Below, in pieces: positions 4,178 through 50,067 of a stretch of DNA of 64,000 nucleotides. The notes below the pieces were generated by a model that was not told where the DNA came from, did not search any database, and saw only the letters and a program-made list of their open reading frames with translations. The translations under genes were made by a program, and so were the position numbers. The stretch is from IMG/VR virus record IMGVR_UViG_3300045988_165521. One strand, 5' to 3'. This stretch comes from a virus. How positions within the stretch are numbered: position 1 is the stretch's first letter; each line of letters starts with the position of its first letter.

Positions 4178-6073
4178 TTAAAAATTAGCTTTTATGCTTT
4201 GTTGTTGTTTTTTCAGATTTGCCTGATTATATATATCTCTATATTCACTAGCACTTCCAATTTCATGATTAGATGCAACAGTTGCAAGTTTAGAATCATG
4301 CATAGGCATAAATATCATTCCTTTATACATTGAATTTTTATTGCCATGAAATATTTTTCCAAAGAAGCCTGGCTTAAAGTTATCAACCTTTTTGTCTGAT
4401 TTCTTTACTACATCTCCTCCATAATTTACATAAGTTGAATAGATATCAAATATTCTATCTTTATCTGGTCCATCAACATGTCATAACCAAGGAGAATTAC
4501 TATCAAAGTCAATAGCTTTATCACTAGCATAACCTGATAATCCAAAAAATACCATCATATCTTCAGGTCTGAATTTTCATCTATTAGTTTCAGTATCAAA
4601 CTCTAAGTCTAGATCATATTCATGTAATTTTTCTATCATTCTTTGTCTAGATACATTAGGATTATCTTCAATTCATTCCTCAAATTTTGTATATCGATCA
4701 TATGCATCTAAGTCAGGCTTATAAACTCCCATTTGTTCTGCATCTCGATCTTTTGGAAGTCACATTCTACTAAGTGAACTAGAGCCATCTCACACAAGTC
4801 TATTTAAATCAATATCTGATATTCTTTGATCTCCAAAGAAAATAGAATTTTTATCAACAATATTACCTATTTCAGCCTTATCCAATACATTTTTTAATGT
4901 ATTTTGAGTTACTTGTGTGCCATTCTTATCTTGTAATGGATAATCCCTAGTTACAATTTCTAACCCTCCTTTGGCATCAGATGTTGATAAAACTGCAATT
5001 TTAGGATCTACAACTCTACCTGCAGCAATAGTTTCTAGAGAGCTTCTATTAACATCTTTATCAGTTCCTCCAGAACTTCCACTGCCTGCTTTAGATGCAG
5101 TTGAATCATAATCTAAAGCTTGTGTATTTTCTACACTATGATTTGTATGTTCAACTACAGCAATTTGTAGTAATCGTTTTACATCTTCAGGATTACTTGG
5201 ATTAAAACCTTCAGCAGCTGCTTGAGCTCTTAAAACGTTTTTCATATTTTGTGGAAGAGTCTTATATAAATAATTAACAGCTAAATCAAGACTTTCTTTA
5301 TCATGATATCCCTGATTAGATGTACTATTTGATTCTGTAACTTTATATATTCCATCTGGTCCATTAAATCCTAATAATTGTTCAAATCCTTTTTCAATTT
5401 TATTCTGATATTTAGAAGTATATCTATCAAACTGATTTGAGGATTTATTAGTTCCAAACGCTCCAATAGTAGCTTTTACATAATCTACTATAGATTTCAT
5501 TCCAACTGTATTAGATAAATCTGTAAGGATACTATTATTATATGCTAGTTCTGGACGTTCTTCTCGAAGATGAATTAATTGAGAATTAGTTAATGCTTGA
5601 TATTTTTGTGGATTTTTATAATAAGTATCTGCAGATATAGTCTTAATACTGCCGTCTTTATTATACACATATAAGCTACCTTCATTACTAATTGCAACTT
5701 CAGACCCAGATCCTTCTTTAATAATTTGTTCTGATGCAGTTTCATGTAATTCATTATTATGTTTAATTCTATTAGCTAAAGATTGTAATCTAATTAAATC
5801 AGACATATCATATTGATTACTCTGTCCAGATACAAATAATTCACCTAAGTTTTGAGATTTTCTTAAAAAACTATTAGCTCTATCTAAGAAGTAATCTACA
5901 TCATTAGGTAACCCATTCTCTTTAAGAACATTAATAATTTCTTTTTGAATAAGTTGTTCTTCTTTATTTTCACTTGTTTTAGAGGTCTGAGTAGCAACTT
6001 GTGTAGGCTCTGCAGCATCTCTAAAAAAGGGGGTATAACTAATACCCCCGTTTTGATATCTCTTTATCTTCAT
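4178..6073 (-). CDS. large virion protein, 631 aa, N-terminus MKIKRYQNGG
   Basis: ATG at 6073. The track ORF 4790..6073 ends at TGA. The same frame stays open (only TGA at 4790, 4760, 4673, 4577, 4481) until TAA at 4178-4180. Confidence 0.7.
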
Positions 6074-6075
6074 AT

Positions 6076-9000
6076 TTATGACATCATTTTTAGAAATAAC
6101 TTAATAATGTTATTATTTAGTTCTCCAACAGCCTTATTGATAGCTTTTTGCTGGTCTAGATATTGTTGCTCATCTGTTTTACGTAAATATCTACCGCCAG
6201 ATTTATAACTATAAGGTATAAATCTTTGAATAGGAATTTGCTCAGGATTAGTATAATTAATTAAATATGGTTTTGTATCTAATTTGTTTCCTCCAAGCCA
6301 AAATCTTCTTTGAGATTGCTGATAAGGATTAACTAAAGCCTCAATTCCATATTTACTTCTATTAGTAGCAATATCTCCAGAATATTTGTAATTTAAATAA
6401 TCATCGATTTTCCAACCACTATATTCTGGATTTTTACCCTCATTCTGTTGCCAATTATAGAACTCATTAATTTTACTATTTCTAAAATTAGTAAACCAAT
6501 TACTGAAATCTCCAGCAGCCTTTTGTTGTGCTAATTGAGCTTGTAAAGCTTGTTTTTCATTTAGATCCTTGGCATAGTCTCCTCTTAACTGATAAATAAG
6601 ATTCTTAACATTTTGAGTTTGTTGCGTAATCTTATTAGCATCAGCCATATCTAACTGAGCTAAACCTTGTGCTCAACGGTTTCTATTCTCATTAGTTATC
6701 TGAGTTCTAATATTAGCGTATTGTTGTTTTTGAGCAAGTAACTTATCATTATATTGATCTATCATTTGAGAAAATTTAGCATCTCTTTCTCCTTCTAATT
6801 GATCAACATTCATATCTCTCATAAGTCTTTCTGCTAATACTTTATTTGGATCACTAGTCGATGTCTTATATTGACGCATACTTTTAATGCGATCATTATA
6901 CATTCTATGCAACCCATTATCACTAAATCTAGAGTAAAACTCAGTAGGCATTTGTTGTTGAGAACCTATCATTCCTTTACGAATGGCATCTTTCATTTTT
7001 TGGGTAGTACGATTGATACCTATTGTAGAAGTAATAAAGTCTCCTATTCCCATTACCATATCAGGATTAATATTAAATCCTTTTCCTTTGCCATGTCCAA
7101 AAGCTGTATAATCAGAGTTATCTGTATTATATGAGGATCTGTTTAAATTAGACAAAGTTCTACTAGTAGAATCATTAAGTAATTCTTCTTTTGAATCTAA
7201 CCTTCCTTTAAACCCAAGATTATTATTAATTTGAGCCATTTTAGCATCATTTAAAATTGAATTATACTGATTCCTCACTACAGTATTTTGAGGTGATTGA
7301 ACAGCTTTATTTAAGCTTGTAGAAGCACGTTTAATAGGAGTTCCAACAACAGCAACTGGATCTACTTGTACATTAATCGGATTATTATTTTTATCTAGCA
7401 TATAATCAGCTACACTAGTTCAATTTTGATCTATTGGAGTACTAAATGTAGGATACTTAGTACCAGGTTGTGCTTTTATAATTTTACCGCCTTTTTTATA
7501 AAATACTGGATTATTCTCTGGTTTATAATACCAGAGATGTTGTGGTTGATTACTAAATATTCCTAAGTTAGGAGCTAAGTTAGAATAGATTGGCATTGTA
7601 ATAGGTCTCCGTTTTAGAGCTGTAACAGATGTAAACATTTCAGGTCCTCCGAAAAATCTTTGAACTTGAGAAGTTTGTTTATCTACATAGTTCTTAAAAT
7701 AAGGATTACTTCTATTAGTTTTTGCATCTCTAGTAGCAGCAGTCTTATTCCAATTTCACCAACCCATATCATCTGGATTTCTATAAGTACTAGGAAGTTC
7801 ATCATATTTAAATTGTCCTGTATTAAGTCCTTTACCTATTGAAGACTTCCAAGGTTTTCTCCAATTGAAATTTACATTAGAAGAACGTTTAATACCATAC
7901 TCAGAAAGTAAGTCAGTAACATTATCTGTTTTAGCTTTACCTAATTTTCCAATAATTATTTCCTCTAACTTTTCAGTTTTTTGATTTTTTGGAAGTGAAT
8001 TGACCGACTCAATCTCAGAACGACCTAATTTAATGGTAGGAAGATTTTTGTTATTAGTTGGTTTTAAAGTAACCATATCAGAGTTTCCTCCTTTTAATTT
8101 TGCACTTCCTGTGTTACGTTTTAAATTAGCAAAACCTCTAACTCCATTTAATACAGTACGAACATCTTTAATAGTTCATTTACCATCTTGAATATTTTCT
8201 CATGCAGTTGCTAATCCAGATGCAGCACTTCCAAAACTAACTCCTCTAGTTGCTCACTTAACAGCATTTGCGACAGCCTTAGATTTCTTTAAAGCTTTAG
8301 CTATTTTTGCTGCCTTAGCTCCTGAGCCAATCCCAGGAAGTAAAGTAGCTGCATCTAATCCTAGATTAAGTGCTAAATTACTAACATCGCCTCAATCTAA
8401 TCCATCTCTAGCAATATCTGCTCCAAAACCAGTTAATGAACCTACTGCACCAACTCCAGCTCCAGCAACATTGCCAAATCCTGGTACAAAAGTAGCACCT
8501 AAAGAAGCAGCATCTGCAACTAAAGCTGCAATTTCAGCTTTGTCAGCAGCAGTTAATTGTGTACCATCTCCAATAGTTTTTTCTTCTCCAGCAGCGCGAA
8601 GTTTTTTATCTGATTGTTGAATTGCTTGTTTACTAGCTTTTGCACTATTAACTCTATTTGCAGCAACTCCTCCAATTTGATATTTAATAACTCCTCCGTT
8701 TTTATTACTTGGAACTCTATAAGCTAAACCTAATTGTTCTAAGCCTTCAGGAGTAGTAATACTTCTTAGAGCAGAATTACCTCCTGTTCCTGAATATTGC
8801 TGTTGATACTTACCAAGCGTTTGAGTTTTAATTAAATCCTGAAATAATTGATATAAATCAGGATATTTTTGTCCAATAATTGGATTAAACTTAGCATGAC
8901 GAGTACTAATTGTAGCTATATATGGATTTCTAATAATATCACTAATATATCCCTTAACTTCTGGATCTCTTAAGATTTCAGGATGTTGCTCAATATATTG

Positions 9001-10686
9001 TCCTAAACGAGAATCAATATTCCAATAATAATTTCTCATACTATCTTCAGATCCAGGTAAACGACTATTTAATGTATAGTTATCATTTCCTGGGTTTTCG
9101 TCATGAAAATAGTATAATTGAGTTTGAGGATTATAATACAATGTAGCTCTTGTTTGAGGATTTGAAGCATCTCCAGTACTTGCTACTTCTTTATATCCTC
9201 CAGTATTTCCTATAGTATAGTAACTATTAAAAGCAGTTGTAGGATTATTTTCATAGTAAGAATTAACTATATTTGGATCTAATTGCTCTTGTAAAGTATT
9301 ATTATAATTAATTCTTTGTTTAGTTAAAGGATCAATATATACTCTTTCTGCTAAAGTTCTTAAAGGGTGTCCATAGGGATCAAACTGAGAAGAATCTTCA
9401 GGATTGTAATTAGGAAAATAATCATAAACTAAAGGATCACCTGCTTGTCTAACATAGTTACCAGTTAGATCTGCAGCATATCGATTTGGTTGAAAATACG
9501 GGGACCACATTGGATTACCTTCTGAATCAACAGAAGTACTAAACCATGGAGATCTAGAACGATTTTCATCCCAATATTGTTTAATAATTGAAGAATTACC
9601 AGCAGTTCTCTTATTATCTGCTACAAAATCTAAATACTTTTGAATTTTAGATAAACTATCTTGGTCATCACCCCTATATACTTTTCCATTAATAACAAAT
9701 AAACCAGAGTCATCTGGAATATAATCCGCATAACTTCCATATTTTCTTTTAAATTCATTATTAAGTCATGCATCTCCAGTTCCAATATATGATAATAATT
9801 CTGGATTATTTATAGTTACATTCCCATTTGAATCAACGTTAAATAGGTTATGGTACTTATCATAATCTCATCCTGCTTTACTTCAGTTTTCTTTTGTTTT
9901 CTTAAGTTCTTCTTGTGCAGGATCTACTTCTTTTTGAGCTTGAACAGGTTTACTTCCTCCTAAAAAGATACCAATATCATCTAATGCCATAGCATCTTCA
10001 TCCGTCCAATTTCCTTGTTCAAGCCTAGATATAATATCTTCTATGCCTTGCTCACCATATTTATTGTAAAAGTCTATATAAGCTTGCTTATCTAAATCAT
10101 TATAGCCTTTAAATTGATCATTATCCCCATAACCTGCAATATCTTTTAGACTACGAAGTCTTCTAGTTGCTTTTAGATTATTAGCTCCATTTATATAAAC
10201 TCTATTTCCATTTACTAATTCAAAATCTCCAGTATCTTTATTACGCTTATATTCCATAGTAATATCACTAGACCAATCTCTAATATTAATTGGATCTAAT
10301 GCTTCTACTGGCTTTTTATATTGAAAATCCTTTAAAGCATGAACTGCATTTCTTGCAGTATTTTCTTTTCCCCTTCATAGATTTCCAAAACTTCTGCCAA
10401 GTCTACTTCGACGTTTACCTAAACGTTCTGCTTGATTATTAGTAACATCAAACTGTACTCCTTCTAATCTATCGGCACTAGAATTATATGATAAATTAGC
10501 ACCTGATCTTAGAGCATCAGTTATTTTACTAAATTGATATGCAGTATCTTGATCTAATGTTTTTCCATAAGAAGACATCTGATTTAGAAAATCATCATCA
10601 ACCTGATATTGATTACCATCTATAGTAAAAGTGCCGTATTTTTGAGGAGTAGAACCACCTTGTTGATATTTAATTACTTGTGCCAT
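6076..10686 (-). CDS. giant tape-measure/ejection-like virion protein, 1536 aa
   Basis: Seven track ORFs (10375..10686, 9883..10257, 8392..9510, 7756..8076, 7420..7638, 6673..7401, 6076..6648) are in one frame. Every break is TGA and every gap was checked free of TAA/TAG. The real stop is TAA at 6076. The protein has a Gly/Ala-rich hydrophobic stretch (VPGFGNVAGAGVGAVGSLTGFG), coiled-coil-like Q-rich parts and several [YF][KQ]xGG motifs. Confidence 0.7.
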
Positions 10687-10710
10687 TTTATCACACTTGC
10701 TTTATATATA

Positions 10711-10744
10711 AAAAGGGAGATTGATCATATCAAATCTCCCTTTT
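10711..10744 (-). terminator. intrinsic terminator hairpin after 10762..11091
   Basis: Stem gggagatt (10715-10722) pairs with aatctccc (10733-10740). A-run and T-run flanks give a U-tract on the minus-strand transcript. Confidence 0.65.
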
Positions 10745-10761
10745 ATCTAATGATCATTAAA

Positions 10762-11091
10762 TTACTTTTTAGCAAAGAATTTATTTTTCATTTCCCCGCC
10801 ATTTTCTTTCTTAGCACATTTCTTGCGGCCTACCATCTTTCCACCTTTCTTAAATACAGGTTCTCCTTCAGGAACTTGTCCAACAGGACCTTGTGGTCCT
10901 TCGCTCATAGCTTGTTGTAAAAGAGCTAAGAAACCTTCACAGACTTGAGCCATTGCTTGACAGTCTTGCGTCTGTAATGCTTGAGCTGCCATTTCTGCTA
11001 ACATTTGTAGTGGATCTTGTCCACCTTGTGGACCAGCAGGTGCCGCAGGAACAGGAGCGGACCCGCCTTCTTGATACTTTTTAACTTTCAT
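10762..11091 (-). CDS. small GC-rich Ala/Gln/Pro-rich protein (109 aa) with its own promoter and terminator
   Basis: Intact ORF with no TGA. It starts MKVKKYQEGG and has FKKGG near the C-terminus. GC content is far above that of its neighbours. Confidence 0.75.
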   Translation of the reverse strand: MKVKKYQEGGSAPVPAAPAGPQGGQDPLQMLAEMAAQALQTQDCQAMAQVCEGFLALLQQAMSEGPQGPVGQVPEGEPVFKKGGKMVGRKKCAKKENGGEMKNKFFAKK

Positions 11092-11159
11092 AATTTAAAT
11101 TATTTTAATTTTTATAGATATCTCATAACTCTATGATTGTCATATATTCATTTAATGCC

Positions 11160-11191
11160 CAAAGATAACACTTTAGTTCTTAATATCCAAA
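11160..11191 (-). promoter_or_regulatory. Bacteroidota-type promoter (TTTG-N20-TAtcTTTG)
   Basis: The minus strand reads TTTGgatattaagaactaaagtgtTAtcTTTG, about 70 nt upstream of the ATG at 11091. Confidence 0.6.
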
Positions 11192-11372
11192 TAAAATTAC
11201 TAAAATTTTCATTTACACTAAATTTTTATGAAAACACTTGCTACATTAGCAATATTATATTATCTTTGTTCCACAACCCAAGAGTATAAAATGAGTCTAT
11301 TTCATTCTCTTTGGAGATGCTAGATTAAACATGAGGCAATATAGGGTTATAAAAGATAGTTAGTATCTTTTA

Positions 11373-11396
11373 AGGAGAGTAAGAAATTACTCTCCT
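11373..11396. terminator. hairpin after the DUF192 gene
   Basis: aggagagt (11373-11380) pairs with actctcct (11389-11396). The T-run lies on the plus side, so the effective direction is uncertain. Confidence 0.4.
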
Positions 11397-11406
11397 TTTT
11401 CTTTAT

Positions 11407-12009
11407 CTATTTAGGAGATTCGATAAACTCACTTGGACGATTATCCTGTTCATTTATATATTTAAAAATCTTTTTTCCAAGTTTAGCATAATCAGAATCA
11501 GCTTTACTTTTATTAGCTCTTTTTGCTAATTTTATTAAAGTTCTAGAATTTTTTCTTGAGAAAATACGTTCGCCACCAACTAAATCCATTTGAGGTTTTC
11601 CATCAGATCCAAGAATATACATTTTATCAATTTCTTTTTCATCTATATCCTCTTCAAAGTCTAATTCGTCTCCAATCTGAATTCCAGAATTAGCATTAAC
11701 TTCTAATACATATTTAGTTCTTCCTTCTTCATCTTCAGGAGTAGAAATAATTGGTTCAGAACTATGAGCTTTACCTAATACTACATTATAAACTTCATCA
11801 TCTTGATTTATAAATACTAAATCAATATCGAATTCCATTTCCTCTGTATTAAATACTACTTGACCTTGATCTTCAGGCATTATAAATAACATACCCTCGT
11901 CATCATCCATAGATTCTACATTACCTAAACCCTGAATTCTTTCTTCTTCCGTTTCTGCTATTAGAACTTTATATTCTTTATCTGCTATTTCTATTTTTAC
12001 CTCTTTCAT
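11407..12009 (-). CDS. DUF192-domain protein (200 aa)
   Basis: The N-terminal half matches the DUF192 pattern (..RIQGLGNVESMDDDEGMLFIMPE..VFNTEEMEFDIDLVFIN..). The ATG overlaps the upstream stop in a TAATG junction at 12007-12011. Confidence 0.6.
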   Translation of the reverse strand: MKEVKIEIADKEYKVLIAETEEERIQGLGNVESMDDDEGMLFIMPEDQGQVVFNTEEMEFDIDLVFINQDDEVYNVVLGKAHSSEPIISTPEDEEGRTKYVLEVNANSGIQIGDELDFEEDIDEKEIDKMYILGSDGKPQMDLVGGERIFSRKNSRTLIKLAKRANKSKADSDYAKLGKKIFKYINEQDNRPSEFIESPK

Positions 12010-13352
12010 TATTTCACACTTTTAATTAGTCCACTTCTATCATCTGTATTCTTTAATAGTTCATGACAAACTAATTTTCCAGCTTCAATTGCAATTTCGT
12101 TGGATGAATCTTCTTGATATGCTTTATATAAAGCCTCAAGTTTATCAGTAAATTCTTTTCTAAGTGTCCATTCTTCCTTTTCAATTTCTGCTGTCTGAAC
12201 AATTCCTCCTTCAGATTGTGCTACTACAGGAATTCCTTTTTTAGTAATTTGATCTTTTAATTCTGGATTTACATTTTCTAAATGATGTTTATGTGCATGT
12301 AAGTTTCCTTCAGGAATTAAATTCATCTTACCTCCGAGTTGGAATTTTTGTGTTTCTGTAGATTGTGTTGGTCGTTTCTGTAAGAATGCTCTAGCTTCAT
12401 CTAATTCAGGAAATTTCATTCCGTTTTTAGCCAAGGAATACATATTATCTAATCCATTATAAGTATTGAAGTTTTTACTAGCAAGAGACTGACCTATTTG
12501 ATTATTCAGTCGCTTTTTACCTGCATCTGTAATATCTAAAGTAGTATTTTGCATTCTTCTAGCTCTAGTTATAGCATTTTGGCCTTTTCGATGAAATCCA
12601 AAGTCAAATAATCCAGCTTTTTTATTACTATATTTATCAATACTATTACTGATAAATTTCTTTGAACCACTATATTCGTTACTAATATCAGATGTATTAT
12701 CTACTAATTTATTAATACGCTTTCCTCCAATACCATTAATTAAATTTAATGCAGCTCCAGCAGCCATTCCAATAGGGCCAAGCATACTTAGACCATCACT
12801 TACCATTCCTTGTATTTGAGAACCAGTACCTTCAACACGATCTTTAGTTCCTCCAATAAGATTTCCTATAGTTTTAGCTCCAGTATTAATCATTCCACCC
12901 ATAGGATTAAATTGACTTACTACATTGTGTCCTATGTCTTTAACTCCAGACATTACTTGAGCAGTAGATCCAGTTTTCTCATTTCCTACAAGGGCTGTGT
13001 TAAGATTTCCAATGAACTGGTCTCCCATTTGAAAAGCTCCTCCAAATTTGCCATTTAGCTTATTTACAGTTTCTGCTCCAGCAAATGTATCATTCTGTCA
13101 ATTTCTAACAGAATCTACAGTTTTTTGTGAAAACATACCTTTTGCGGTAGAGAAAGGATTCCTTTTATCTGCATCAGAATCAGATTTAGTATCTTTAAAA
13201 TTTCCAATATCTGATTTGATTTTATTCATAGAAGCACTAATGAAAGCATTATAGTTTCCTAAGTTAAGACCAAGCTGTTTTAACATATCTGGACTAATAA
13301 TATTCCCAGAACTAACTCCTCCTATTTCCATTTTTTTTATTCTTTTATGCAT
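12009..13352 (-). CDS. virion protein, 447 aa, N-terminus MHKRIKKMEIGG
   Basis: Track ORFs 13098..13352 and 12009..13028 are in frame and joined through TGA at 13098. The gap has no TAA/TAG. It contains FQLGGKMNLIPEGNLHAHKHH. Confidence 0.7.
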
Positions 13353-16300
13353 AACTTTGAGTCATTAATGTTTGTAATGCAGTAATAATAACAAGTTTAT
13401 CACCTTTATATTTAACTCTAATTCTTGCATATTTATCTCGAACTTTAGTTGCCTTTAATGGAGATTCAAAATCATTAGAGCTTGTTTGTTCATAATATAT
13501 TGGTTGTACTTGGAAATACCAAGAATCTTCACTATAGTATATATTACCTAATCGTCTTCCATATTCTTTTATATTTAAACAATCTGCATGTACATTTAAG
13601 TAATATTCATTTCGAATTGGATCTCATGTAACTTCTGTTTTATATCCTTTAGATTCTTTATCTAAATAGATTTCTGGGAAATTAGCGTTTGTAGATTCAT
13701 TTTTATTAAAAGTTTTATTTCTATAAATAGCTCTTTTACTAAATTCATATACATCTCCAGTAATTTCTATTTCAATAGAATTTGGTTCAACATTATTAGA
13801 TATTATTACTAAATTGTCAAATATTTTATGAATTCCTTTTGGTTCATTAACTATAAATTCAAACTCAAAAGGTTCCTGTTTATTATATCATTTAGTAGGT
13901 AATATTTGATTTGTTTCATCACTATCAAAATAATTTATCTCATCAATAATGTTACTTCTACCATGTACGAAAATATTATATAATAGTGCCTTATTTCAAT
14001 CATCTTGATATTTCAACATGTCGAATTCTTTTAGCACCTCATAAGGAATAATAGCTCCAGCTGTATATGATCGTTCAATTCCAAAAACAATACAATTACT
14101 CATAAGATTTCCACTCTCATCTTCAGAAGGATTATCTTCTGATGAAGTTACAACATATGGAGTATATTTTACTTCAATAGTATAATATAAATAGCCTCTA
14201 TCCTCTTTTCTGTATAGATCTTTAAATTCTATTGAAAATGGAGCCGCATCCTTCTGTTCAAGATAATTAGCATAGATTATTTTCTGACGGTCCTCTTCTG
14301 ATTCAGCATCTATAGCATTTCCAACATTTTTATTTTTAATTTCAACCCAATTCTCACTTACTTCATCCATAAGCCAGGTTTCTTCATTTGCTTTGCATTC
14401 AATAAGTGAATCAGTTTTTATTTCATCTTCGTCTCAGTAATATCCTTTTATAACGACACTATTAACATTATATCCATCATATCCATCAACTGTGAAAGTA
14501 AACTTTGAGTATTCTCTATCAGAAGTAACATATTTTCCAGTTCATTCTTCTCCTACCTTTACAAGATCATCAGTTTTCCGAAGATTATTACTTATTATAC
14601 TAAATATTTTACTCTTAAGCAAATCAAAACTAAAATATGTATTATTTATATTTTCTGATAATAAAGGAACTCACGAATATCTAGTAACTCACATGCTACG
14701 TACTTCATTATAACATATATTCCAAATTTTATCATTATTATAAAAAGTGAACATAACATCATTTTTATAAGCATTAAAGTGAGTTTTAACATTTCTCGTT
14801 CCTAATGCTACTGTTTTTTCAAGTTCCTTAAGATTTATTTCATCATTAAGGAATCTTTGAATTGTAAAATCAGATATAAGTTCAAGACCTCTATCAGAAA
14901 ATCTCCAAATTTTCTTAGTATATGTATCAACACCATATACTGCCCTAGGAGTTCTTATAATAGAGTCTTTTCATATAGAACCATACATATCAGATATAAT
15001 TGTCATTTGCTTTTGTAATACTCCAGATCCATACATATGAATATTTTGCCCAGTAATAGTTTGAATAAGAGCTTTTTCATTTATTGGAACAATAGCTATA
15101 GCATGTTCAAATACAGTTAATAGATTTCCTCCTCAAGGAAGAATTTTTACTATACCTCCATATTGTCTATCTAAATCTTCATATGATAATCCTTGGAATA
15201 CCTTATATGAGTTCTTAAAGTTTCCATCTACCTGAATATCACTAAACATTATACGAGTATCAAACTCGTCAACCTCATAAGGTACATCTATGTGCTTATA
15301 ATTTCTTTTAAATCCTAGAGTAGTACTATATCCTCTATTATATAAGTTACTTTCTGGAATTTTAGCAGAAGATTTAGTAGACATACCTTGTATAGGATAA
15401 AATCCTCTTGGATTTCCCATTAATGCAATTTCTTCTGTATTAAACTCATCAATACTTCTAAGAGAAATATTATTATTAGATAATCCTTTAAATGTTACTC
15501 AACTTCCAATAGCTACTGCATTAATATCTCCAATATTTATATCATCCCAGTTTTCAGTATTTCTAATACCTTTAAAATTATCTTTTCAAGTATTAAAATC
15601 TACTATTGTATCATTTGTAGGAACTGTTTGAGAAGTGAAGTTTCTATGTAACCTAATGGTAGTTGTATAAGTAAAGCAATCACCACGATATAATATTGGA
15701 ATCATACTCCAATTAAATTCTATAGAATTACCTTCCACGTCTTTATAATCAGTAGTACAATCTGTAATATCTTTGTCTTTTATTACACTAGTATCTGTAG
15801 CATATCTATCAGATACTGCAAAGTAAGGAGAATTATCATCGATTCTTATTTGAAAATATTCCTTATTAAATGTTTCGGAGTAATTTTTTATATAAACATT
15901 ATATAATGATGATTTACCAAGTAAAGTGTTACATCCTACAAAATCAGTAAATACTCCTCTAACTAATTGAGCATCGCTTGATTCTATATCCTCTTTTCCA
16001 AAACAGGTTTGTTGTTTAATTTCTTCTTGCATTCCTGCTCTAGTACAAAAGATATTATCATTAATAATTTTCTGAGGAATATCCGAGTCTATATATAAAA
16101 GTTCGCTTGTTGTTTCTGCATTTGTACTTTCAACATTTGTTAAATCTAAGGTATAACTTCTTCCTGATGCGTTATATTGATTAAACTTGTATGCTTCTAC
16201 TAATTTATATCTATCTGAGTTAAGTAGAGATTGCATTTGCTTATCACACTTAACATCTGCTGATAATAATCCTGAATAGCTACAATTGTTACTATATATA

Positions 16301-17865
16301 AGTTTTGAATCATAATCGTTAATCAATACCTTATTTTTATTTACAAAAGATTCTGTTACAAGCTTTGGATTTTGGCCTCCTTCAGAAAGATCAAGACAAG
16401 GAACTCCACTTACAGTGTCAACTCCTATAGATAACCCAGAGAATAAAAATGTTGGAATACGCTGTTGCCTAACAAAGTAGTATCCCTTAATATTCAGTTC
16501 TTTAAGTTTATTAATTACAAATTCAGGGATTCTAATTTTTAATCCCAATGGCTTCACAGATTTTCCGTCATGATCAATAATAGTCTTATCTTTAGTAAAT
16601 CTAAATACTCCTCTTGTATTTTCTAAAGTTTCTAAAGATATAAAATCTTTATTTTCTATAGTTTCAGGATCTCTTAAGTCTATATTATAATCATAATTAC
16701 ATTTATTACTTGATATTATCTCTCCATTATCCCCTTTTTCTTTAAAATGATAAGTTGAAAGATTAAAATCAATACCTCTAAGATTATATACAGGAGATAA
16801 ATGCTCATCATTATATATAAATACTACTCCTAGTCTATAAATTTCTCCAGGGAAATATCCAAGTCTATAATATATATTATATGGAGAATAGTATTCTGCA
16901 GCAGTAATATCCCCTTTATAAATTCCATATTTATCTGTAATATATCCTATATCATGTTCTTGACATTCTTCTACATTAATATATAACGCAAGATTACTTA
17001 AAGTGGCAGAGTCTTCTTTAAGTTTTGAAACATTTGCAAAGAATAATCTATTTTGAACTTGTGCCTGGCTTTTTACAGACTCTACATAGTTATATTGTAT
17101 ATTTAAATCTTCTGCAGTTATGTCTTCAAGTTCTTCAAATCCATTAATGGTTATTGTTTGATTGACATCAGTTATTTCATAAGTCTTTTTTATTTTATGA
17201 AAATCTGTTTTAGAAATACCATTTACATCACAACTTGTTCTACTATAATATATATTTATATAACTAAAAGACGTATCTATATTCTTAAGATAAAGTATTA
17301 TAGATTTATCAGTACGTTCATCCATATAAGCTCCAACACAAGTCTTAGGATTTGATAAATCTCCTTTAAATACAGACACTATTCCTGATTCAGCAACAAT
17401 ATCAGTTTCATTATAGTCACTATCAGAATATTTTATATAAAATATATAATTCCCTCCTTTGAGAGTTCCAAAGTAATCTACATTTTTAAATTGAATCTTT
17501 GGAATTCTAGTAACGTTTCTAAATAACCTAGTTTGTTGATCTAATTCATTTTCTGTATATAAATTAGATTGTTTAATTTGGTTTCGATTTATAATTTTAT
17601 ATCTATTATTTTCTAATAACGCTACTCTAGTATTTATTATTCTAGGAGGATTTTTATCATCGTTGAATATTAAATTTGTACTTCCATCATAAGAACTTTG
17701 ACATTCTATGTCTATAGGATTTTCTAGATCTAATTTTAATTGAGAATTACTTACTGTAAAATCATCAATCTGATCATCAGATTTTTTTAAATTACGTAAA
17801 GGATTATACTCTCAAGCAATATCTCCAGTATCCTTGTACTTTTTTACTTTCAGTTTTATATCCAT
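13345..17865 (-). CDS. very large tail/baseplate-type structural protein, 1506 aa
   Basis: ATG at 17865 (TAATG overlap with the upstream stop). Track ORFs 15586..17379, 15133..15420 and 13996..14370 share the frame. All gaps were checked and contain only TGA. TAA at 13345-13347. Confidence 0.7.
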
Positions 17866-20800
17866 TATTGCCCGTCATCATATATATTAGAAATAAACTC
17901 TCTTGCTACAGAACGCGTATTATTATCTGTCTCTCTCATAAACAATTCTAAAGTAGCATCCATATTAGATCTTACTTGATCTGTAAACACCATACTTTTT
18001 ATAGCATTAGTTAATTTCACTTTATTTGCATTCTCATTATACTCATGAATAAGATACAGGTCTCCACTTTTTATATTCGGCTGTCTTTCTAATTCATCTA
18101 CTTTAATTCTTACATCACTATTCTTATTATCTATTAACCTTTGGAGTTCATATTTAAAAGATTCATCAGGAGTAACTATACAATTAAAATTGACATTTGT
18201 ATTTGTAGATATCACATTATTGTCTGCAAAAGATACTCCATTAAATATTGAATCTATTTCATCTGGAATGTCAACTCCCTCATCCATGAAATATTTTCAA
18301 TTATATGTTCCAGAAAGATTAATAGTTTTTATATATACTGGATTTATAAGAGATTCTCTATAGTTATATAAAGAATAATAAATTATATTATTTTTAGAAG
18401 ACATACAATATCTTAAACAGTATATCATCATAAGATAGGAATATATACAAGTTTTAGAAATATAAGAAGCATCTTTCTCTGAAGGCGCCTTATTAGCACA
18501 GTAATATATACAAGGTCATGAATTTTTTGTTTCATATGACATTGCAAGACAGAAATTATTTGCAGATCCGTATCTGCTAAAGAAACCAGAATCTCCAGAA
18601 TGGCTACTATCATTACCATATTTTGCATTATAGAAATTATATATATTAAATCCATAATCATCTGCATAACTTTTTGTACTAGTTGCAGAATGGCCATTTG
18701 GTTTTCAATCTGTTCTATGCCAATTAGTTCCACTTGAAATATTTAAATCTCCAAGAACACTAGGTCAGTTCTTTTCTGGAGTGAATGCTTCTGTATTCTC
18801 ACCATAATACAACTTATTGTTTTCAAACCTAATAGTAAAAGGACCTACCTCTTTCCACCAGAAACACATTGATCATTTATCTCTTCCAGAACCGTCTTTT
18901 CTAAATTCTACATATTCAGGTCTATATTCTATTGTATGAGTATCGTCTTTATCTGTAACTTTAGTTTTAGTTTTTCCAATAGGATGATATTCATATAAAT
19001 ATTTATCACTACTACTGATTTCTTTTACAATATTATATTCAGTATTTGTAACTGTAAAAGTATTAAACAAATCAAATGAAAAAGATCCATCTATTTTATT
19101 AAAGAGTAGTGTATAAGTATTGCCTTTAGAATCTATAGCCTTGCCATTGTTAACAGTAACGCCTTTAGAAGTGATTCATCTTCATAATCTACCGTCATCT
19201 CCATTTTGGTCTTTTGGAACAGATATAGTATATACTTCAGAGTTTCCTACCTTTTTAATAGAATATGTATTGCCTTGTTTAAATATAGTCTTAATTCCAA
19301 TCTTAGAAGTATCATACGTTTCTCCAGGAGGTTCTGGATATACTAATTTAATTTCACTAAAATAGTCACTAGAATCAAATGAATAATTATTTATTTTTTC
19401 ATCTTTTGAATCTTCATTACCTCTTCGTTTTAGAAAAGCAGTTTCTGTAAACGCATAATTACCTGAATTAAGTTCGAGTTTTATATAATCAGCAAAGTAA
19501 TTTACAAGGTCTTGTCCTGTAATATCCTTAAAGTTATCTTTAACATAATATCACCTATTTACAAGTTCTGTGGCATAAATTCTATTTTCGGCAGGTTCTA
19601 TATCTCCTCTAATAGGATTTCCAGATTCAATATTAATAACATAACGAAGACTTAGAAAGTATATATCCTCTTTATTAAAATTAACTTTTTTTATCTTAGG
19701 TTCTCCAGTTTGAGTAGTATCATACTCTGCTATGTCTTCATTATTTTCAGAAAAGGGTATATCTATAATAATAGTTCCATTACTTATTATATCAGAAACC
19801 GAAGTCCAATCAATAGCAGTATAGGGGTTGTCTGAATCTGAAGTAGAATATCTTTCTAACTTATATTCAAGGCTAACTCCAGGAAAACTTTCTCAAGAAG
19901 TAAGCATTGTTAGAGAATTATCTCCTACAAAATATTTAAAATAATTTCTTCCAAAGTGTATTTCATTAGGATCTATTGTTATAGGATCTCTAGAAATTGT
20001 TTGTGTAAATTGACTATATATTATATAATTTTTCTTACCTTCATTTTCAACTAATAATGCGGGAGTAATATATTTGTAGTTTCCAAGCGTTTTTGCCTCA
20101 ATAGTATTAAATATTATAGACTGGAAATTATTATAAGATATTAATTGATTAGGCTCTAGACTTATTGGAGATAATTTACTTATATTTTTTTCATCTAAAG
20201 TATCATAATCATGTAAAAAATATACTAAATTATTTTGAATCTTATCTAAATCTCCATCAGCATAATTTACAAGATTCCAATAAGTTTGTACTCTAAGATC
20301 TCCGCCTGGATAAACTTTTATAGCATTTGAATCACTATTATCTACATATATCTTACTTTTATCAAAATATATATTAAATTGTTCTGGAACCGTAATACTA
20401 AACTTTACAGCAAGCCAACCAGGAATATCCCAAGATACAGGAATCCAATCACTTCTATTAGTTGTGGATTTATCGACTTGTAATTCAAGAAGCCCATCTA
20501 TATTATACAATTTATTTTCATCTGTAAGAATATAAGGAACTAAGTGTCTATAGTATTTATTGTTTAACTGTTCAAGTGCTTCCTTAAAGGAATATTCATC
20601 TAAATTTTCATATATAAGAAGATACTTATCTCCTGGATTTAAATAAAAATTAGGATCTTTACTAAGAAGTATGATTTTAGTTTCACCTTCTAAATCTTTA
20701 TATAAAGATGTTTTATCAATAATAATATCCTCAATTGTAGCATCCTTATTATCTACAATTGGGGTAAAGATTGTTTGTTGTGATGGAAAACTTCCAATTT

Positions 20801-21068
20801 CTACTTTGTCGTCAATTGGATTATATGAAATAATATATAATACTCCTTGGTGTTCTTTCATTCCAACAGGAACAAAACCATTACTCAAAGCTCCATTTTT
20901 AAACCCATAATTACCCATATCGTTCTGTAAGGCAAATTCATTACCATTATAAGTAATTAAAGTGCCGTTTAAACAATCAGTCATTACAGTATTTGGAACC
21001 ATTAATGGTTCTATATCCTTTATCATTCCTCCATTAAACTGATTTATTTGATTTAATTTGTTCTTCAT
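17865..21068 (-). CDS. large tail structural protein, 1067 aa
   Basis: ATG at 21068. Pieces 19893..21068, 18873..19070 and 17865..18287 are in one frame. Gaps 19071-19892 and 18288-18872 contain no TAA/TAG. TAA at 17865-17867. Confidence 0.7.
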
Positions 21069-23443: not shown

Positions 23444-23881
23444 TTAATAGTACACTTTTGCTTCTTCAGTATATTGATCTATGAGTTTTTTAAGATATTT
23501 ATCAACATAGATTGGTTTTTCCATAGTTTCTTTATTATGCTTCATATATCTATATACTAGCTGGTTTCCTGTAAATTGAGATAATACAAAATCAATATTA
23601 TTAAATTTACCTCTTCTATATGCTTGTTTAAAGTCTTCATCTGCAATTTGTTTCATAGAAATTTCTCCATAATTCCCAAAACGCAGAGGTAGTACAAAGG
23701 TAACATTATTATTTATAATATCCAATAAGATCTCATAAAAACAGTCATCAAAAATCTTAGCAGCTAGATTCTTACGATCTTTATATCTATTTTTTACTCA
23801 TCTTCCTTTTAATAACTTAGGATTTAACCCATTATATAGTTCCCTAGAGTTAAAACCATGAGGAAACATTTTTTTATTCAT
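23444..23881 (-). CDS. small virion/neck-region protein, 145 aa
   Basis: ATG at 23881 (TAATG overlap). There is one in-frame TGA. TAA at 23444. Confidence 0.6.
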
Positions 23882-24570
23882 TAGTTAACAGGTTTAAATG
23901 ATTTCTTATATTGCTTTCTATCCCAACGTGTACGAGCATCAAGAATCTCATTCATTTCATTTTGCGAGATATGTTCAGGAACTCTGGCATCACTACAAGC
24001 TCTCAATCATTCTTGTTTAACTGCTTGAGCTATTTGAAAAGAATTACTATCTCTTAATACAAGACTCTTTTTATATAAATCAATATATGCGGCATATGCA
24101 GCTAACGCAGTTAATTCTTTATCTGTTATAAGTGGCAGTCCATCATCATCTACAATTACACCATGATATAGTACAGATACATTCGAATAATCTCTATCAA
24201 ACTCTAATGCATTATTTATCTCATTATAATTTAATAGTTTTCCTGATTGGTATAATGGATCTTTATTCCATTTTCAAGCTTCATTATATCTTTCATAATA
24301 AGCATTTTGAACTAATGGGAAGATACTAGTGTCTGAAGTAGATTGAAAGTCTTCAAATGGAATTGTTACAGATTCTATAAAAGATAAATTGCAAGGTAAT
24401 TCTAGTATTCTATTTGTAGTATCTCCTACATATCTATACATTCTAGAATGTTTATTACCTATTAACTGTAAACCATTTAAAACTATATCCTCAAAATTAT
24501 CAGGATTTATTGTAACCCCATATAATATATTGGCAAGAGAATATACAGAATTTATATTATTTAACTTCAT
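23881..24570 (-). CDS. head-completion/neck-region protein, 229 aa
   Basis: Track ORF 24274..24570 continues through TGA at 24274 and 24007. TAA at 23881-23883. All triplets were checked. Confidence 0.6.
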
Positions 24571-49790: not shown

Positions 49791-50067
49791 ATTCTAATAC
49801 TATATATTGATTTCCTTCACCTGGAGTAGTCATTTCTCCAGAATAATATTTTGTTCTATCTAGTTGTCTGTTTCTAAGTTCTTTTTCAAGAAATTCGAAA
49901 AAACCTTCTTCATCACCTTCATAGACTAAAACTAGTGGAGCTTTTCATTGATTTAAATCTAAACTTAATTTCCATTGATTACCATCTATAGTTAATGTAA
50001 AGTCTCCAGTGTAATATGCACACATAGCCTTTTCAATTATTTCATATACTTTATCAACGAGTTCCAT
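49759..50067 (-). CDS. small hypothetical protein (102 aa) between TerL and portal
   Basis: ATG at 50067. Two in-frame TGA, no TAA/TAG. It overlaps the TerL end and the portal start. Confidence 0.4.

What the first reader, a model, noticed from the sequence alone, without database searches (positions are those of the whole stretch)
4178..13352. Recurrent [YF]-[KQ]-x-G-G motif at extreme N-termini and inside virion proteins: possible processing or targeting signal
Four consecutive gene products begin with a 9-12 residue basic leader ending in Gly-Gly: MKIKRYQNGG|I (6044..6058), MAQVIKYQQGG|S (10654..10668), MKVKKYQEGG|S (11062..11076) and MHKRIKKMEIGG|V (13317..13331). The same pentapeptide recurs internally: IKYQIGG (8668..8682), FYKKGG (7486..7500), SYKSGG (6193..6207), VFKKGG (10840..10854) and KFQLGG (12330..12344). 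It occurs three more times in 52944..54464: MFKQGG (54393..54407), KFKDGG (54354..54368) and FFQEGG (53637..53651). The poly-G gene starts MIKQFIFQNIAGGG|V. Cleavage after Gly-Gly is the rule for double-glycine leader peptidases and for several viral maturation proteases (adenain, ASFV pS273R, coronaviral PLpro). An alternative role is a shared capsid-targeting or docking peptide for packaged proteins. Processing at these sites would cut the 1536-aa protein into several pieces.
Basis: inference. Interest (0 to 1): 0.7.

Follow-up and report, generated by a model that had tools for sequence, protein, structure and literature searches.

The report
Conserved Gly-Gly tag on crassvirus cargo proteins
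A short peptide, basic-[Tyr/Phe]-[Gln/Lys]-x-Gly-Gly, recurs at the ends and inside of five proteins of an uncultured gut crassvirus; it is conserved while the rest of those proteins diverges, and it most likely marks proteins carried inside the virus particle, though what recognises it is unknown.

Summary
The window is a TGA-recoded (code 4) crassvirus, probably Zeta group. [YF][KQ]xGG occurs 11 times in about 19,900 residues, against 0.9 expected. All copies lie in five proteins. Four are encoded directly after the muzzle gene, where ΦcrAss001 encodes its packaged cargo proteins. The fifth lies upstream of the terminase.

The copies are positionally conserved in relatives down to about 25-30% identity that use three different genetic codes. 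There are two flavours: an N-terminal K-[FY]-Q-x-G-G and an internal or C-terminal P-V-[FY]-[KR]-[KR]-G-G-[KR]-[LI]. AlphaFold leaves the near-invariant N-terminus of the 631-aa protein unpacked. Codons for Gly-Gly vary, so selection acts on the protein.

Similar tags occur on small basic proteins of a few unrelated uncultured phages. They are almost absent from 596 Gb of cellular genomes.

I found no C39, clan CE or prohead protease, and the motif does not fit C39 or adenain site rules. Best reading, with moderate confidence: a short linear recognition motif for loading or docking internal (ejected) proteins. Cleavage is possible but unsupported.

Corrections: the fourth N-terminal example is weak, the four genes are not consecutive, and the poly-G gene is not an instance.

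The parts
13345..17865 (-). Crassvirus muzzle protein gene (1506 aa, code 4). This is context: it marks the start of the downstream block of cargo-like genes.
   Evidence: Pfam crAss_MUZ E 6.3e-28 and crAss_MUZ_C E 2e-4. The same family precedes the module in relatives.
12009..13352 (-). 447-aa 'mid' protein (one in-frame TGA). It has a Gly-rich hydrophobic segment and a conserved C-terminal NxIPEGALHAHKH domain. It carries one strong internal motif and one weak N-terminal motif.
   Evidence: 1644 homologues. G340 and G341 are invariant; F337 and K342 are kept in >90%. There is a weak hhalign match of the Gly-rich segment to the ΦcrAss001 gp45 transmembrane region (probability 25%).
13317..13331 (-). 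Weak N-terminal motif M-E-I-G-G in MHKRIKKMEIGG of the 447-aa protein.
   Evidence: It is degenerate in relatives (METGAS, YETGAS, LITGG, KYQVGG).
12330..12344 (-). Internal motif F-Q-L-G-G (TQKFQLGGKM) in the 447-aa protein, in a linker just before the conserved C-terminal domain.
   Evidence: It is conserved as [KE]FQxGGK[MLI] in 7 of 8 syntenic loci and in essentially all listed homologues, with a variable spacer after it. pLDDT is below 50.
11407..12009 (-). DUF192 protein (200 aa) embedded in the module. It has no motif. It has a lineage-specific conserved C-terminal extension (..GGERIFSR..AKRA..SK.D.DY..).
   Evidence: Pfam PF02643 E 8e-17. It sits at the same position in all relatives. 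It was not found in the other motif-bearing phage loci.
10762..11091 (-). 109-aa 'small' protein: N-terminal Q-type motif, Pro/Ala-rich linker, helical core with two conserved Cys, C-terminal K-type motif and a basic tail.
   Evidence: Among 120 representatives clustered at 50% identity, 107 have the N-terminal copy and 88 have the strict C-terminal copy.
11062..11076 (-). N-terminal motif Y-Q-E-G-G (MKVKKYQEGGS) of the 109-aa protein.
   Evidence: The family consensus is [KR]-K-F-Q-[EQ]-G-G-[AQ]-M-P, with Gln in 103 of 105.
10840..10854 (-). C-terminal motif F-K-K-G-G (EPVFKKGGKMV) of the 109-aa protein.
   Evidence: The family consensus is P-V-[YF]-[RK]-[KR]-G-G-[KR]-[LI]-x-[RK].
6076..10686 (-). 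1536-aa 'big' protein (11 in-frame TGA codons) with four motif copies.
   Evidence: Homologues of 1434-1554 aa lie at the same position in 8 loci. In L028 it is split into separate genes.
10654..10668 (-). N-terminal motif Y-Q-Q-G-G (MAQVIKYQQGGS) of the 1536-aa protein.
   Evidence: A K[YFL]QxGG-like N-terminus is present in 8 of 9 relatives.
8668..8682 (-). Internal motif Y-Q-I-G-G, second half of a tandem pair (NKNGGVIKYQIGGVA), at residue 669 of the 1536-aa protein.
   Evidence: It aligns with EKNGGVINKFQFGGVA in L025.
7486..7500 (-). Internal motif Y-K-K-G-G (PVFYKKGGKIIKAQPG) at residue 1063 of the 1536-aa protein.
   Evidence: Extended conservation as [FY]KKGGKI.KAQ.G in 8 of 9 relatives.
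6193..6207 (-). Near-C-terminal motif Y-K-S-G-G (IPYSYKSGGRYL), 38 residues from the end of the 1536-aa protein.
   Evidence: It aligns with YAKGGR, YKKGGK, FKRGGK, YKSGGN and YKHGGK in relatives.
4178..6073 (-). 631-aa protein (TGA-containing). It has a folded core with no structural relative in the PDB and a near-invariant free N-terminal peptide.
   Evidence: 106 homologues down to 24% identity. AlphaFold mean pLDDT is 73.6, with residues 1-39 below 40 and without secondary structure. Foldseek against the PDB gives nothing at E<=0.001.
6044..6058 (-). N-terminal motif Y-Q-N-G-G (MKIKRYQNGGISYTPFF) of the 631-aa protein.
   Evidence: Of 87 distinct N-termini, 77 have Gly-Gly in register, with Q in 69 of 77 and Y/H/F in 62 of 77, followed by I-Y-Y-T-P. 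Q7, G9, G10, Y13, T14 and P15 are kept in >90%.
52944..54587 (-). 547-aa protein encoded upstream of a 193-aa ORF and the large terminase. It has a helical N-terminal domain followed by a variable region with three motif copies.
   Evidence: 80 homologues. The motif copies are conserved while the spacing between them varies from about 20 to 240 residues. No Pfam or PHROG hit.
54393..54407 (-). Motif F-K-Q-G-G (AGMFKQGGKLA) in the 547-aa protein.
   Evidence: Conserved as MF[KR]xGGK[LI] across the family.
54354..54368 (-). Motif F-K-D-G-G (VNKFKDGGSAK), 13 residues after the previous copy.
   Evidence: Conserved as KF[KQ]xGG at a fixed 13-residue offset.
53637..53651 (-). Motif F-Q-E-G-G (GSFFQEGGKTP) in the 547-aa protein.
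   Evidence: Conserved as FF[QK]xGGK, at positions 95 to 321 in homologues.

Best explanation
The motif is a short linear recognition motif of about 8-11 residues. It comes in two flavours: [KR]-[KR]-[YF]-Q-x-G-G-[small] at N-termini, and P-V-[YF]-[KR]-[KR]-G-G-[KR]-[LIV] internally or near C-termini. It is displayed on flexible termini and linkers of the internal (cargo or ejection) proteins of a Zeta-type crassvirus.

Proposed mechanism (inferred, not shown): each copy is bound in trans by a component of the assembling particle. Candidates are the scaffold, portal, inner capsid surface or tail-barrel/muzzle lumen. Each separately encoded cargo polypeptide is thereby recruited into the procapsid and/or positioned for ordered ejection. 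This would work like the capsid-targeting sequence of T4 internal proteins or the cargo-loading peptides of encapsulins. Large proteins carry several copies, giving multivalent anchoring. Removal of the tag after loading is optional in this model.

Shown: enrichment, conservation, two flavours, position, lack of intramolecular packing, genomic location, and phage specificity. Inferred: that the proteins are packaged, that the motif is bound in trans, and what binds it.
For: - Enrichment: 11 observed against 0.9 expected, confined to 5 of 47 proteins. N-terminal placement has P about 2e-6.
- Protein-level selection: Gly-Gly codons differ among sites.
- Genomic location: four carriers lie directly downstream of the muzzle gene (crAss_MUZ E 6e-28), in a module conserved in relatives. 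In ΦcrAss001 the genes after the muzzle gene encode cargo proteins that are stored in capsid and tail and dock by short segments on portal, tail rings and muzzle (PMC10172136).
- The motif is the most conserved element of otherwise diverging proteins: 631-aa family, 447-aa family, 547-aa family with variable spacing, small family, big family. Conservation spans relatives using codes 11, 4 and 15.
- Gene fission in L028 gives each separate product its own N-terminal copy, and one piece ends in a C-terminal copy.
- The N-terminal 39 residues of the 631-aa protein are unpacked in an otherwise confident model. The motif regions of the 447-aa model have pLDDT below 50.
- The same N-terminal tag is fused to unrelated domains (DUF6321, an HExxH zincin-like domain, small basic proteins) in the structural regions of a few other uncultured phages, with local enrichment of 5-6 against 0.4.
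- The strict N-terminal DNA pattern gave 72 hits in IMG/VR but only 6 in 596 Gb of cellular genomes, all on MAG contigs.
- Precedent: diverse T4 internal proteins share only a capsid-targeting sequence (PMC3012670).
Against: - There is no direct evidence that any of these proteins is in the virion; the lineage is uncultured (PMC12386605).
- No receptor is identified.
- The giant RNA-polymerase-like proteins of the same block, which are cargo in ΦcrAss001, lack the motif.
- ΦcrAss001 cargo proteins lack it.
- Homology of the carriers to gp45 or gp46 is marginal or absent.
- Sharing one motif among phages with very different capsid and portal proteins is awkward for a phage-specific receptor. 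It would fit a universal partner such as DNA or a host component better.
- The 547-aa carrier is encoded far from the cargo block.
- Cultured HTVC023P shows no enrichment under the strict pattern (2 against 1.5).
Confidence: 0.4

Rival explanations
1. Maturation cleavage site. A phage or host protease cuts after Gly-Gly. This would remove short basic N-terminal leaders and C-terminal tails and divide the 1536-aa and 547-aa proteins into smaller mature products. It could operate alone or after the tag has served for targeting, as with the T4 capsid-targeting sequence.
For: - Short basic leaders of variable length (2-40 residues) precede the N-terminal copy in the small family, as expected for propeptides.
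- Copies lie in linkers predicted to be flexible.
- Gly-Gly at P2-P1 is used by adenain, and Gln at P4 is tolerated by adenain (PMC4246237).
- Small basic proteins with sites at both ends recall adenovirus pX/mu (my own knowledge).
- T4 internal proteins lose their targeting sequence by proteolysis (my own knowledge; context).
Against: - No C39, clan CE, S77/U9, S78, U35, ClpP-like or assemblin-like domain was found in the window proteins scanned or among 86 ORFs of 90-900 aa in the 117-kb relative MT835470. Only the fibre chaperone Peptidase_S74 and Cpn10 appeared there.
- The HExxH protein is only a sub-threshold SprT-like hit.
- The P' side is conserved: [KR]-[LI]-x-[RK] in the C-terminal flavour and I-Y-Y-T-P in the 631-aa family.
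- The two flavours differ at P4 (Gln against Lys/Arg).
- The capsid, scaffold-like, portal and terminase proteins have no site.
Confidence: 0.2
2. Binding module for a universal, non-virion ligand. The aromatic-basic-Gly-Gly-basic element binds packaged DNA (charge neutralisation or co-ejection) or a conserved host envelope or chaperone component met after ejection. This would explain why unrelated phages share it.
For: - The flanks carry net positive charge (+1 to +5).
- The C-terminal flavour resembles single RGG/KGG boxes (YRRGGRLVRR).
- Carriers in other phages are very basic small proteins.
- The motif is shared across phages with unrelated capsids.
- These phage groups encode GroES-like proteins, and Gly-Gly followed by hydrophobic residues faintly recalls the GroES mobile loop (my own knowledge).
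Against: - The N-terminal flavour is followed by neutral A-M-P or I-Y-Y-T-P, not by basic residues.
- The strict Gln, aromatic and Gly-Gly conservation is more specific than expected for electrostatic DNA binding.
- The tag is essentially absent from cellular proteomes, so it is not mimicry of a common host N-terminal signal.
- The GroES loop lacks the aromatic-Gln/Lys part and needs a hydrophobic tripeptide.
Confidence: 0.15
3. Self-assembly element. The copies are beta-hairpin connectors that pair with each other, N-terminal flavour with C-terminal flavour. They would oligomerise or chain the ejected proteins, for example into the trans-envelope conduit or an ordered string inside the particle.
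For: - The two flavours are strictly sorted to N- and C-termini of the same small protein.
- Tandem copies occur at 7-13 residue spacing: NKNGGVIKYQIGG, FFKDGGKISKFQSGG, MFKQGG..KFKDGG.
- The aromatic-x-x-G-G-x-hydrophobic pattern is what a tight hairpin would give (inference).
Against: - No structural model supports pairing; the motif regions are low-confidence in both models.
- The 631-aa family has only the N-terminal flavour.
- Both flavours are basic, so there is no charge complementarity.
Confidence: 0.1
4. Chance, or a by-product of composition or of a DNA-level repeat or signal.
For: None beyond the low G+C content and the Lys/Gly-rich composition of some carriers.
Against: - Within-protein shuffles give 0.89 against 11 observed.
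- Codons differ among copies, so there is no constant DNA word or Shine-Dalgarno-like GGAGG.
- The copies are positionally conserved across hundreds of homologues.
Confidence: 0.01

Closest known systems
Capsid-targeting sequence (CTS) of bacteriophage T4 internal proteins (IPI, IPII, IPIII, Alt)
   Same: A short N-terminal peptide of about 10 residues is the only element shared by otherwise diverse proteins carried inside the head. It suffices to direct them into the prohead (PMC3012670). The T4 IPIII tag begins MKTYQE (my own memory), which is superficially like MKVKKYQEGG.
   Different: The T4 tag is strictly N-terminal and ends in a (L/I)xE site cut by the gp21 prohead protease (my own knowledge). 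Here the motif ends in Gly-Gly, also occurs internally and near C-termini in a second flavour, and no prohead protease was found. There is no sequence homology.
Encapsulin cargo-loading (targeting) peptides
   Same: Short, Gly-containing conserved peptides on flexible termini of cargo proteins. They bind the interior of an HK97-fold shell and can be moved to foreign proteins (PMC8346489 and PMC11866011, listed).
   Different: The consensus differs (encapsulin peptides are SLGIGSL-like; my own memory). They usually occur as a single C-terminal copy, and the receptor is known. Here the receptor is unknown, and the particle is a DNA-filled tailed phage.
ΦcrAss001 cargo proteins gp45 (C1) and gp46 (C2) and their docking segments
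   Same: The genes sit directly after the muzzle gene. The proteins are large and partly disordered, are stored in capsid and tail, and are anchored by short ordered segments to portal, ring proteins and muzzle (PMC10172136). The window's 447-aa protein shares a Gly-rich hydrophobic segment with gp45.
   Different: ΦcrAss001 proteins do not carry the motif; the only near-match is NIFDTGG near the gp45 N-terminus. Homology is marginal for gp45 and absent for gp46. The docking segments seen in ΦcrAss001 are helices or a folded domain, not Gly-Gly peptides.
Adenovirus protease (adenain) sites in core and capsid precursors
   Same: Gly-Gly lies at P2-P1. Sites occur near both ends of small basic internal proteins. 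Gln at P4 can be accepted (PMC4246237).
   Different: The consensus P4 is Met/Ile/Leu. Here P4 is Gln or Lys/Arg, and the hydrophobic residue is at P5. No clan CE protease domain was detected, and the major structural proteins have no site.
Double-glycine leaders cut by C39 peptidase-domain ABC transporters
   Same: An N-terminal leader ends in Gly-Gly.
   Different: C39 leaders are about 15-30 residues with a hydrophobic pattern at -4, -7, -12 and -15 (my own knowledge). Here 5-10 residues precede Gly-Gly, -4 is Gln or Lys, copies are also internal and C-terminal, and no C39 transporter gene was found.

Membership tests
C39 double-glycine leader peptide | An N-terminal leader of about 15-30 residues with conserved hydrophobic positions (-4, -7, -12, -15) before Gly-Gly. 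| tested here: not met
   Leaders are MKIKRYQNGG, MAQVIKYQQGG and MKVKKYQEGG. Position -4 is Gln (69/77 and 103/105) or Lys/Arg. The leader can be as short as 2-5 residues.
C39 double-glycine leader peptide | A cognate C39 peptidase (usually the N-terminal domain of an ABC exporter) is encoded with the substrate. | tested here: not met
   No Peptidase_C39 or ABC transporter hit in the window proteins scanned or in 86 ORFs of the relative MT835470. Tail-fibre ORFs and proteins over 900 aa were not all scanned.
Clan CE (adenain / ASFV pS273R / PLpro-type) cleavage site | The site is (M/I/L)-X-G-G|X, with a hydrophobic P4. | tested here: not met
   P4 is Gln or Lys/Arg, and the aromatic residue is at P5. 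Relaxed adenain sites with Gln at P4 exist, so the N-terminal flavour alone would be borderline.
Clan CE (adenain / ASFV pS273R / PLpro-type) cleavage site | The virus encodes the protease, and the major capsid or core precursors carry sites. | tested here: not met
   No clan CE domain was found. The capsid, scaffold-like, portal, terminase, ring and muzzle proteins have no [YF][KQ]xGG.
T4-type capsid-targeting sequence | A short N-terminal peptide shared by otherwise unrelated internal virion proteins. | tested here: met
   Three non-homologous families (631-aa, 1536-aa, 109-aa) share the N-terminal tag, and it is conserved in each. That they are internal virion proteins is inferred from gene position only.
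T4-type capsid-targeting sequence | The tag is removed by the prohead protease at (L/I)xE after it binds the scaffolding core. | tested here: not met
   There is no (L/I)xE after the tag and no gp21-like protease domain. Binding to the scaffold could not be tested.
Encapsulin-type cargo-loading peptide | A conserved short peptide on a flexible terminus, not packed against the cargo's own fold. | tested here: met
   Residues 1-39 of the 631-aa protein have pLDDT below 40 and no secondary structure, while the core is confident and the peptide is more than 90% conserved.
Encapsulin-type cargo-loading peptide | The peptide binds a pocket on the interior of the HK97-fold shell protein. | not testable with these tools
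   No complex prediction was available. The capsid protein is identified (Crass_capsid, 28413..29822), but no interaction data exist.
Crassvirus cargo proteins (ΦcrAss001 gp45/gp46-like) | Encoded directly downstream of the muzzle gene in the virion block. | tested here: met
   crAss_MUZ at 13345..17865, followed by the 447-aa, DUF192, 109-aa, 1536-aa and 631-aa genes and then a giant protein. The order is the same in 8 relatives.
Crassvirus cargo proteins (ΦcrAss001 gp45/gp46-like) | Sequence homology to gp45 or gp46. | tested here: inconclusive
   447-aa family against gp45: probability 25%, 42 columns over the Gly-rich hydrophobic segment. 631-aa family against gp46: probability 0.6%. Bayfield et al. 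report that gp46 homologues are missing in the zeta group.
Crassvirus cargo proteins (ΦcrAss001 gp45/gp46-like) | Physically present in purified virions. | not testable with these tools
   The lineage is known only from metagenomes.

The most novel reading that the evidence does not exclude
The two flavours form a portable, cross-lineage addressing code for proteins that travel inside phage particles. The N-terminal K-[FY]-Q-x-G-G and the C-terminal P-V-[FY]-[KR]-[KR]-G-G-[KR]-[LI] would be complementary connectors that join cargo proteins head to tail, with the roughly 100-aa two-ended protein as an adaptor. The result would be an ordered string threaded through portal and tail, which fixes the order of ejection.
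Probability: 0.1. Interest if true: 0.85.

Novelty: new variant of a known kind. Interest (0 to 1): 0.62.

Why it matters
[quoted passage not shown] How their unusually large load of internal proteins (about 5.5 MDa in ΦcrAss001) is selected, stored and ejected is not known.

If this peptide proves to be a loading or docking tag, three things follow. Packaged and ejected proteins could be predicted from sequence alone in uncultured phages. The receptor could be searched for directly. Foreign proteins could be loaded into such particles, as was done with the T4 targeting sequence and encapsulin peptides.

The tag also appears on small basic proteins of some unrelated uncultured phages, while it is nearly absent from cellular genomes. 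That hints at a wider, undescribed convention among tailed phages.

If it proves instead to be a cleavage site, it would point to an unrecognised maturation protease.

Tried and rejected
- DNA-level repeat or internal Shine-Dalgarno-like signal: rejected. Gly-Gly codons differ at every site.
- Composition artefact: rejected by within-protein shuffles.
- C39 double-glycine leader and adenain/PLpro LXGG site: the motif geometry does not fit, and no such protease domain was found.
- HExxH protein 31475..31921 as the protease: only a sub-threshold SprT-like hit (E 0.003, 17.8 bits against a cut-off of 25.6) and no PHROG. It remains untested, not excluded.
- DUF192 as the universal partner: it is syntenic in this lineage. 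An HMM built from 9 members found nothing in the other motif-bearing loci, in 50 kb of HTVC023P or in the ΦcrAss001 structural region. tblastn in GenBank phages hit only the two relatives. The literature on DUF192 is uninformative.
- Mimicry of a host N-terminal signal: the strict pattern gave only 6 hits in 596 Gb of cellular genomes, all on MAG contigs.
- Homology of the carriers to known structures: no PDB sequence hits, and Foldseek gave nothing for the 631-aa model.
- The 447-aa model was too poor to use (pLDDT 47).
- Cultured carriers: tblastn of the L097 zincin-like carrier found none. HTVC023P has only loose copies and no strict enrichment.
- No tRNA or Rfam family lies in the window.
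- Literature searches found no description of the motif.
- GroES mobile-loop mimicry was considered only from memory and judged weak.

Full report
**What the window is.** The window has about 30% G+C and nearly all genes lie on the minus strand. Under the standard code the long genes are broken. All 11 in-frame interruptions of 6076..10686 are TGA and the frame ends in TAA. Translation with code 4 restores long ORFs throughout.

Pfam and PHROG hits identify a crassvirus:
- muzzle protein, 13345..17865 (crAss_MUZ, E 6e-28)
- major capsid protein, 28413..29822 (Crass_capsid)
- ring protein 1, 23881..24570
- C-terminal half of a P22-like portal, 47246..48289
- large terminase, 50051..52360 (phrog_6681, E 9e-67)

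There is no near DNA match in GenBank phages. IMG/VR holds relatives at 96-99% identity on contigs up to 174 kb. Three features fit the Zeta group of crAss-like phages (PMC7886860; PMC12386605): the genome size, the reverse-oriented virion block, and relatives that use standard, TGA or TAG coding. This placement is an inference.

**Checking the observation.** Every coordinate in the finding is correct.
- [YF][KQ]xGG occurs 11 times in 19,923 residues, against 0.89 +/- 0.95 in within-protein shuffles (maximum 5 of 2000).
- Three proteins carry it within their first 16 residues, against 0.024 expected (P about 2e-6).
- All copies are in five proteins: 631 aa (4178..6073), 1536 aa (6076..10686), 109 aa (10762..11091), 447 aa (12009..13352) and 547 aa (52944..54587).
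- Gly-Gly codons differ from site to site, so this is not a DNA repeat.

Corrections to the finding:
- A motif-free DUF192 gene (11407..12009) separates the 109-aa and 447-aa genes.
- The 447-aa N-terminus (KKMEIGG) is off-pattern and loses Gly-Gly in close relatives.
- The 'poly-G gene' is not an instance.

**Conservation.** For the 631-aa protein, 106 homologues down to 24% identity keep M-K-I-K-[RK]-[YH]-Q-x-G-G-[IV]-x-Y-T-P-F. Of 87 distinct N-termini, 77 have Gly-Gly in register, with Gln in 69 of the 77.

Eight syntenic loci at about 25-60% identity keep the same module. They use codes 11, 4 and 15. The order is: muzzle, a 400-580 aa protein, DUF192, a protein of about 100 aa, a protein of about 1500 aa, a protein of about 600 aa, then a giant protein.

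Alignments show that the copies are positionally conserved:
- both ends of the small protein
- the N-terminus, about residue 669, about residue 1063 (extended to [FY]KKGGKI.KAQ.G) and about 40 residues from the end of the big protein
- a linker before the NxIPEGALHAHKH domain of the 447-aa family (1644 homologues)

In the 547-aa family the copies are kept while the distance between them changes by more than 200 residues.

In the small family, 120 representatives clustered at 50% identity show two sorted flavours. The N-terminal flavour is [KR]-K-F-Q-[EQ]-G-G-[AQ]-M-P, with Gln in 103 of 105. The C-terminal flavour is P-V-[YF]-[RK]-[KR]-G-G-[KR]-[LI]-x-[RK].

In locus L028 the module is split into more genes. 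Three separately encoded proteins there (360, 97 and 889 aa) each begin with their own N-terminal copy. The 818-aa piece has no N-terminal copy but ends 12 residues after a C-terminal copy.

**Structural context.** A 52-sequence alignment gave a usable model of the 631-aa protein (mean pLDDT 73.6). Its core runs from about residue 40 to 600. Residues 1-39, the best conserved part, have pLDDT below 40 and no secondary structure. The fold has no relative in the PDB. The 447-aa model was poor (pLDDT 47), and both motif regions scored below 50. High conservation without intramolecular packing is what a peptide recognised in trans looks like.

**Context in known biology.** In ΦcrAss001 the genes after the muzzle gene encode cargo proteins (gp45, gp46, gp47, gp49, gp50). 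[quoted passage not shown] Short ordered segments of gp45 dock on the portal, tail rings and probably the muzzle (PMC10172136).

The window's carriers occupy that position. The 447-aa family shares only a Gly-rich hydrophobic segment with gp45 (probability 25%). The 631-aa family has no detectable relation to gp46. ΦcrAss001 itself lacks the motif, and so do the giant proteins of the window's block.

**Beyond this lineage.** A degenerate DNA pattern for M-K-[IVM]-K-[KR]-[YF]-Q-x-G-G found 72 IMG/VR loci. Most belong to this lineage, but several do not:
- contigs with an HTVC023P/Pag-Yong1-type capsid gene that carry clusters of small, very basic proteins with 5-6 copies against 0.4 expected
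- a 31% G+C contig with a 510-aa protein bearing four copies
- contigs where the tag precedes a DUF6321 domain or an HExxH zincin-like domain

Cultured HTVC023P has only loose copies and no enrichment, so the breadth should not be overstated. The same pattern gave just 6 hits in 596 Gb of bacterial and archaeal genomes, all on MAG contigs. No Pfam family covers the motif, and the papers searched do not mention it.

**Protease question.** No C39, clan CE, or prohead protease domain appeared in the window proteins scanned. None appeared among 86 ORFs (90-900 aa) of the 117-kb standard-code relative MT835470, where the motif is also enriched (12 against 2.8).
- The HExxH protein is a sub-threshold SprT-like hit.
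- The motif does not fit C39 leaders, because the leader is too short and -4 is polar.
- It does not fit the adenain rule (M/I/L)XGG, although adenain tolerates Gln at P4.
- Residues after Gly-Gly are conserved.
- The major structural proteins have no site.

Cleavage by an unrecognised or host enzyme remains possible.

**Interpretation.** The best-supported reading is a short linear recognition motif that loads or docks internal (ejected) proteins. It would work like the T4 capsid-targeting sequence or encapsulin cargo-loading peptides. I give it a confidence of about 0.4.

Rivals:
- a maturation cleavage site (0.2)
- a module binding DNA or a conserved host component, which would better explain sharing among unrelated phages (0.15)
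- hairpin connectors that pair N-terminal with C-terminal flavours (0.1)
- chance, which is excluded

The packaged state of the carriers, binding in trans and the identity of the receptor are all inferences.

**Limits.**
- Gene starts are first-ATG calls, supported by database gene calls for the 631-aa, 447-aa and 547-aa families.
- Tail-fibre ORFs, the giant proteins and the roughly 106 kb of genome outside the window were not scanned for proteases. Precomputed Pfam hits on relatives' giant proteins show only AAA_19 and AAA_30.

Noticed in passing
whole window, e.g. 6076..10686, 4178..6073, 12009..13352: TGA is read as sense (code 4) in the virion genes. Syntenic relatives of the same module use the standard code (MT835470), TGA, or TAG (MT835492, L027). 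The code therefore switches within the lineage. No suppressor tRNA, or any other tRNA, lies in this 64-kb window.
   Followed up: partly
47246..49790 (-), insertion about 48287..48614: The portal gene is split into a 392-aa N-terminal ORF and a 347-aa C-terminal ORF in different frames. About 328 nt separate them, exactly where the relative MT835470 reads ...LQDKYDL... without a break. This looks like a small self-splicing intron. Rfam found no group I or II match at gathering thresholds.
   Followed up: partly
56209..58137 (-): A PD-(D/E)XK nuclease gene carries an intein-like insertion with a LAGLIDADG_3 domain, ending in ...IVTHN.
   Followed up: partly
55035..55571 (-): A phage-encoded GroES-like co-chaperonin (phrog_3188, E 4e-6), with a typical mobile loop (EIKTSASGLILPG). 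The relative MT835470 has a Cpn10 hit, and HTVC023P encodes an annotated GroES (gp36). Several motif-bearing phage groups therefore have one.
   Followed up: partly
11407..12009 (-): A DUF192 (COG1430) protein of unknown function is a fixed member of the cargo-gene module in this lineage. It has a conserved C-terminal extension of about 80 residues (M.L.GGERIFSR.N.K.LI..AKRA..SK.D.DY..LG..IF) that is not part of the Pfam domain.
   Followed up: partly
12009..13352 (-), residues about 344-447: The C-terminal domain of the 447-aa family has a near-invariant N-x-I-P-E-G-A-L-H-A-H-K-H ... T-K-K-G-I-P-V-V ... Q-x-A-E-I-E signature with an HxH motif. It has no Pfam or PDB relative and could be a metal site.
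   Followed up: no
13345..17865 (-) N-terminus; 17865..21068 (-) N-terminus: The muzzle protein starts MDIKLKVKKYKDTGD, which is motif-like but with T-G-D instead of x-G-G. The next protein starts MKNKLNQINQFNGGMIKD, where the aromatic residue is one position closer to Gly-Gly. Neither was counted as an instance.
   Followed up: no
Its role is open.
   Followed up: partly
L049, L050, L079 (IMG/VR contigs with an HTVC023P-type capsid gene): Adjacent tiny basic ORFs share a longer C-terminal element, Y-K-K-G-G-[ST]-V-R-G-x-G-x-A-x-[KR]-G-[VA]-R-x-x-K-M. Some begin M-R-R-Y-Y-A-A-G-G-R-V. They are fused to DUF6321 or to DUF5754/DUF5872-like pieces.
   Followed up: partly
4178..6073 (-): The 631-aa protein's predicted fold (pLDDT 73.6) has no Foldseek match in the PDB at E<=0.001. 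It is possibly a new fold.
   Followed up: partly
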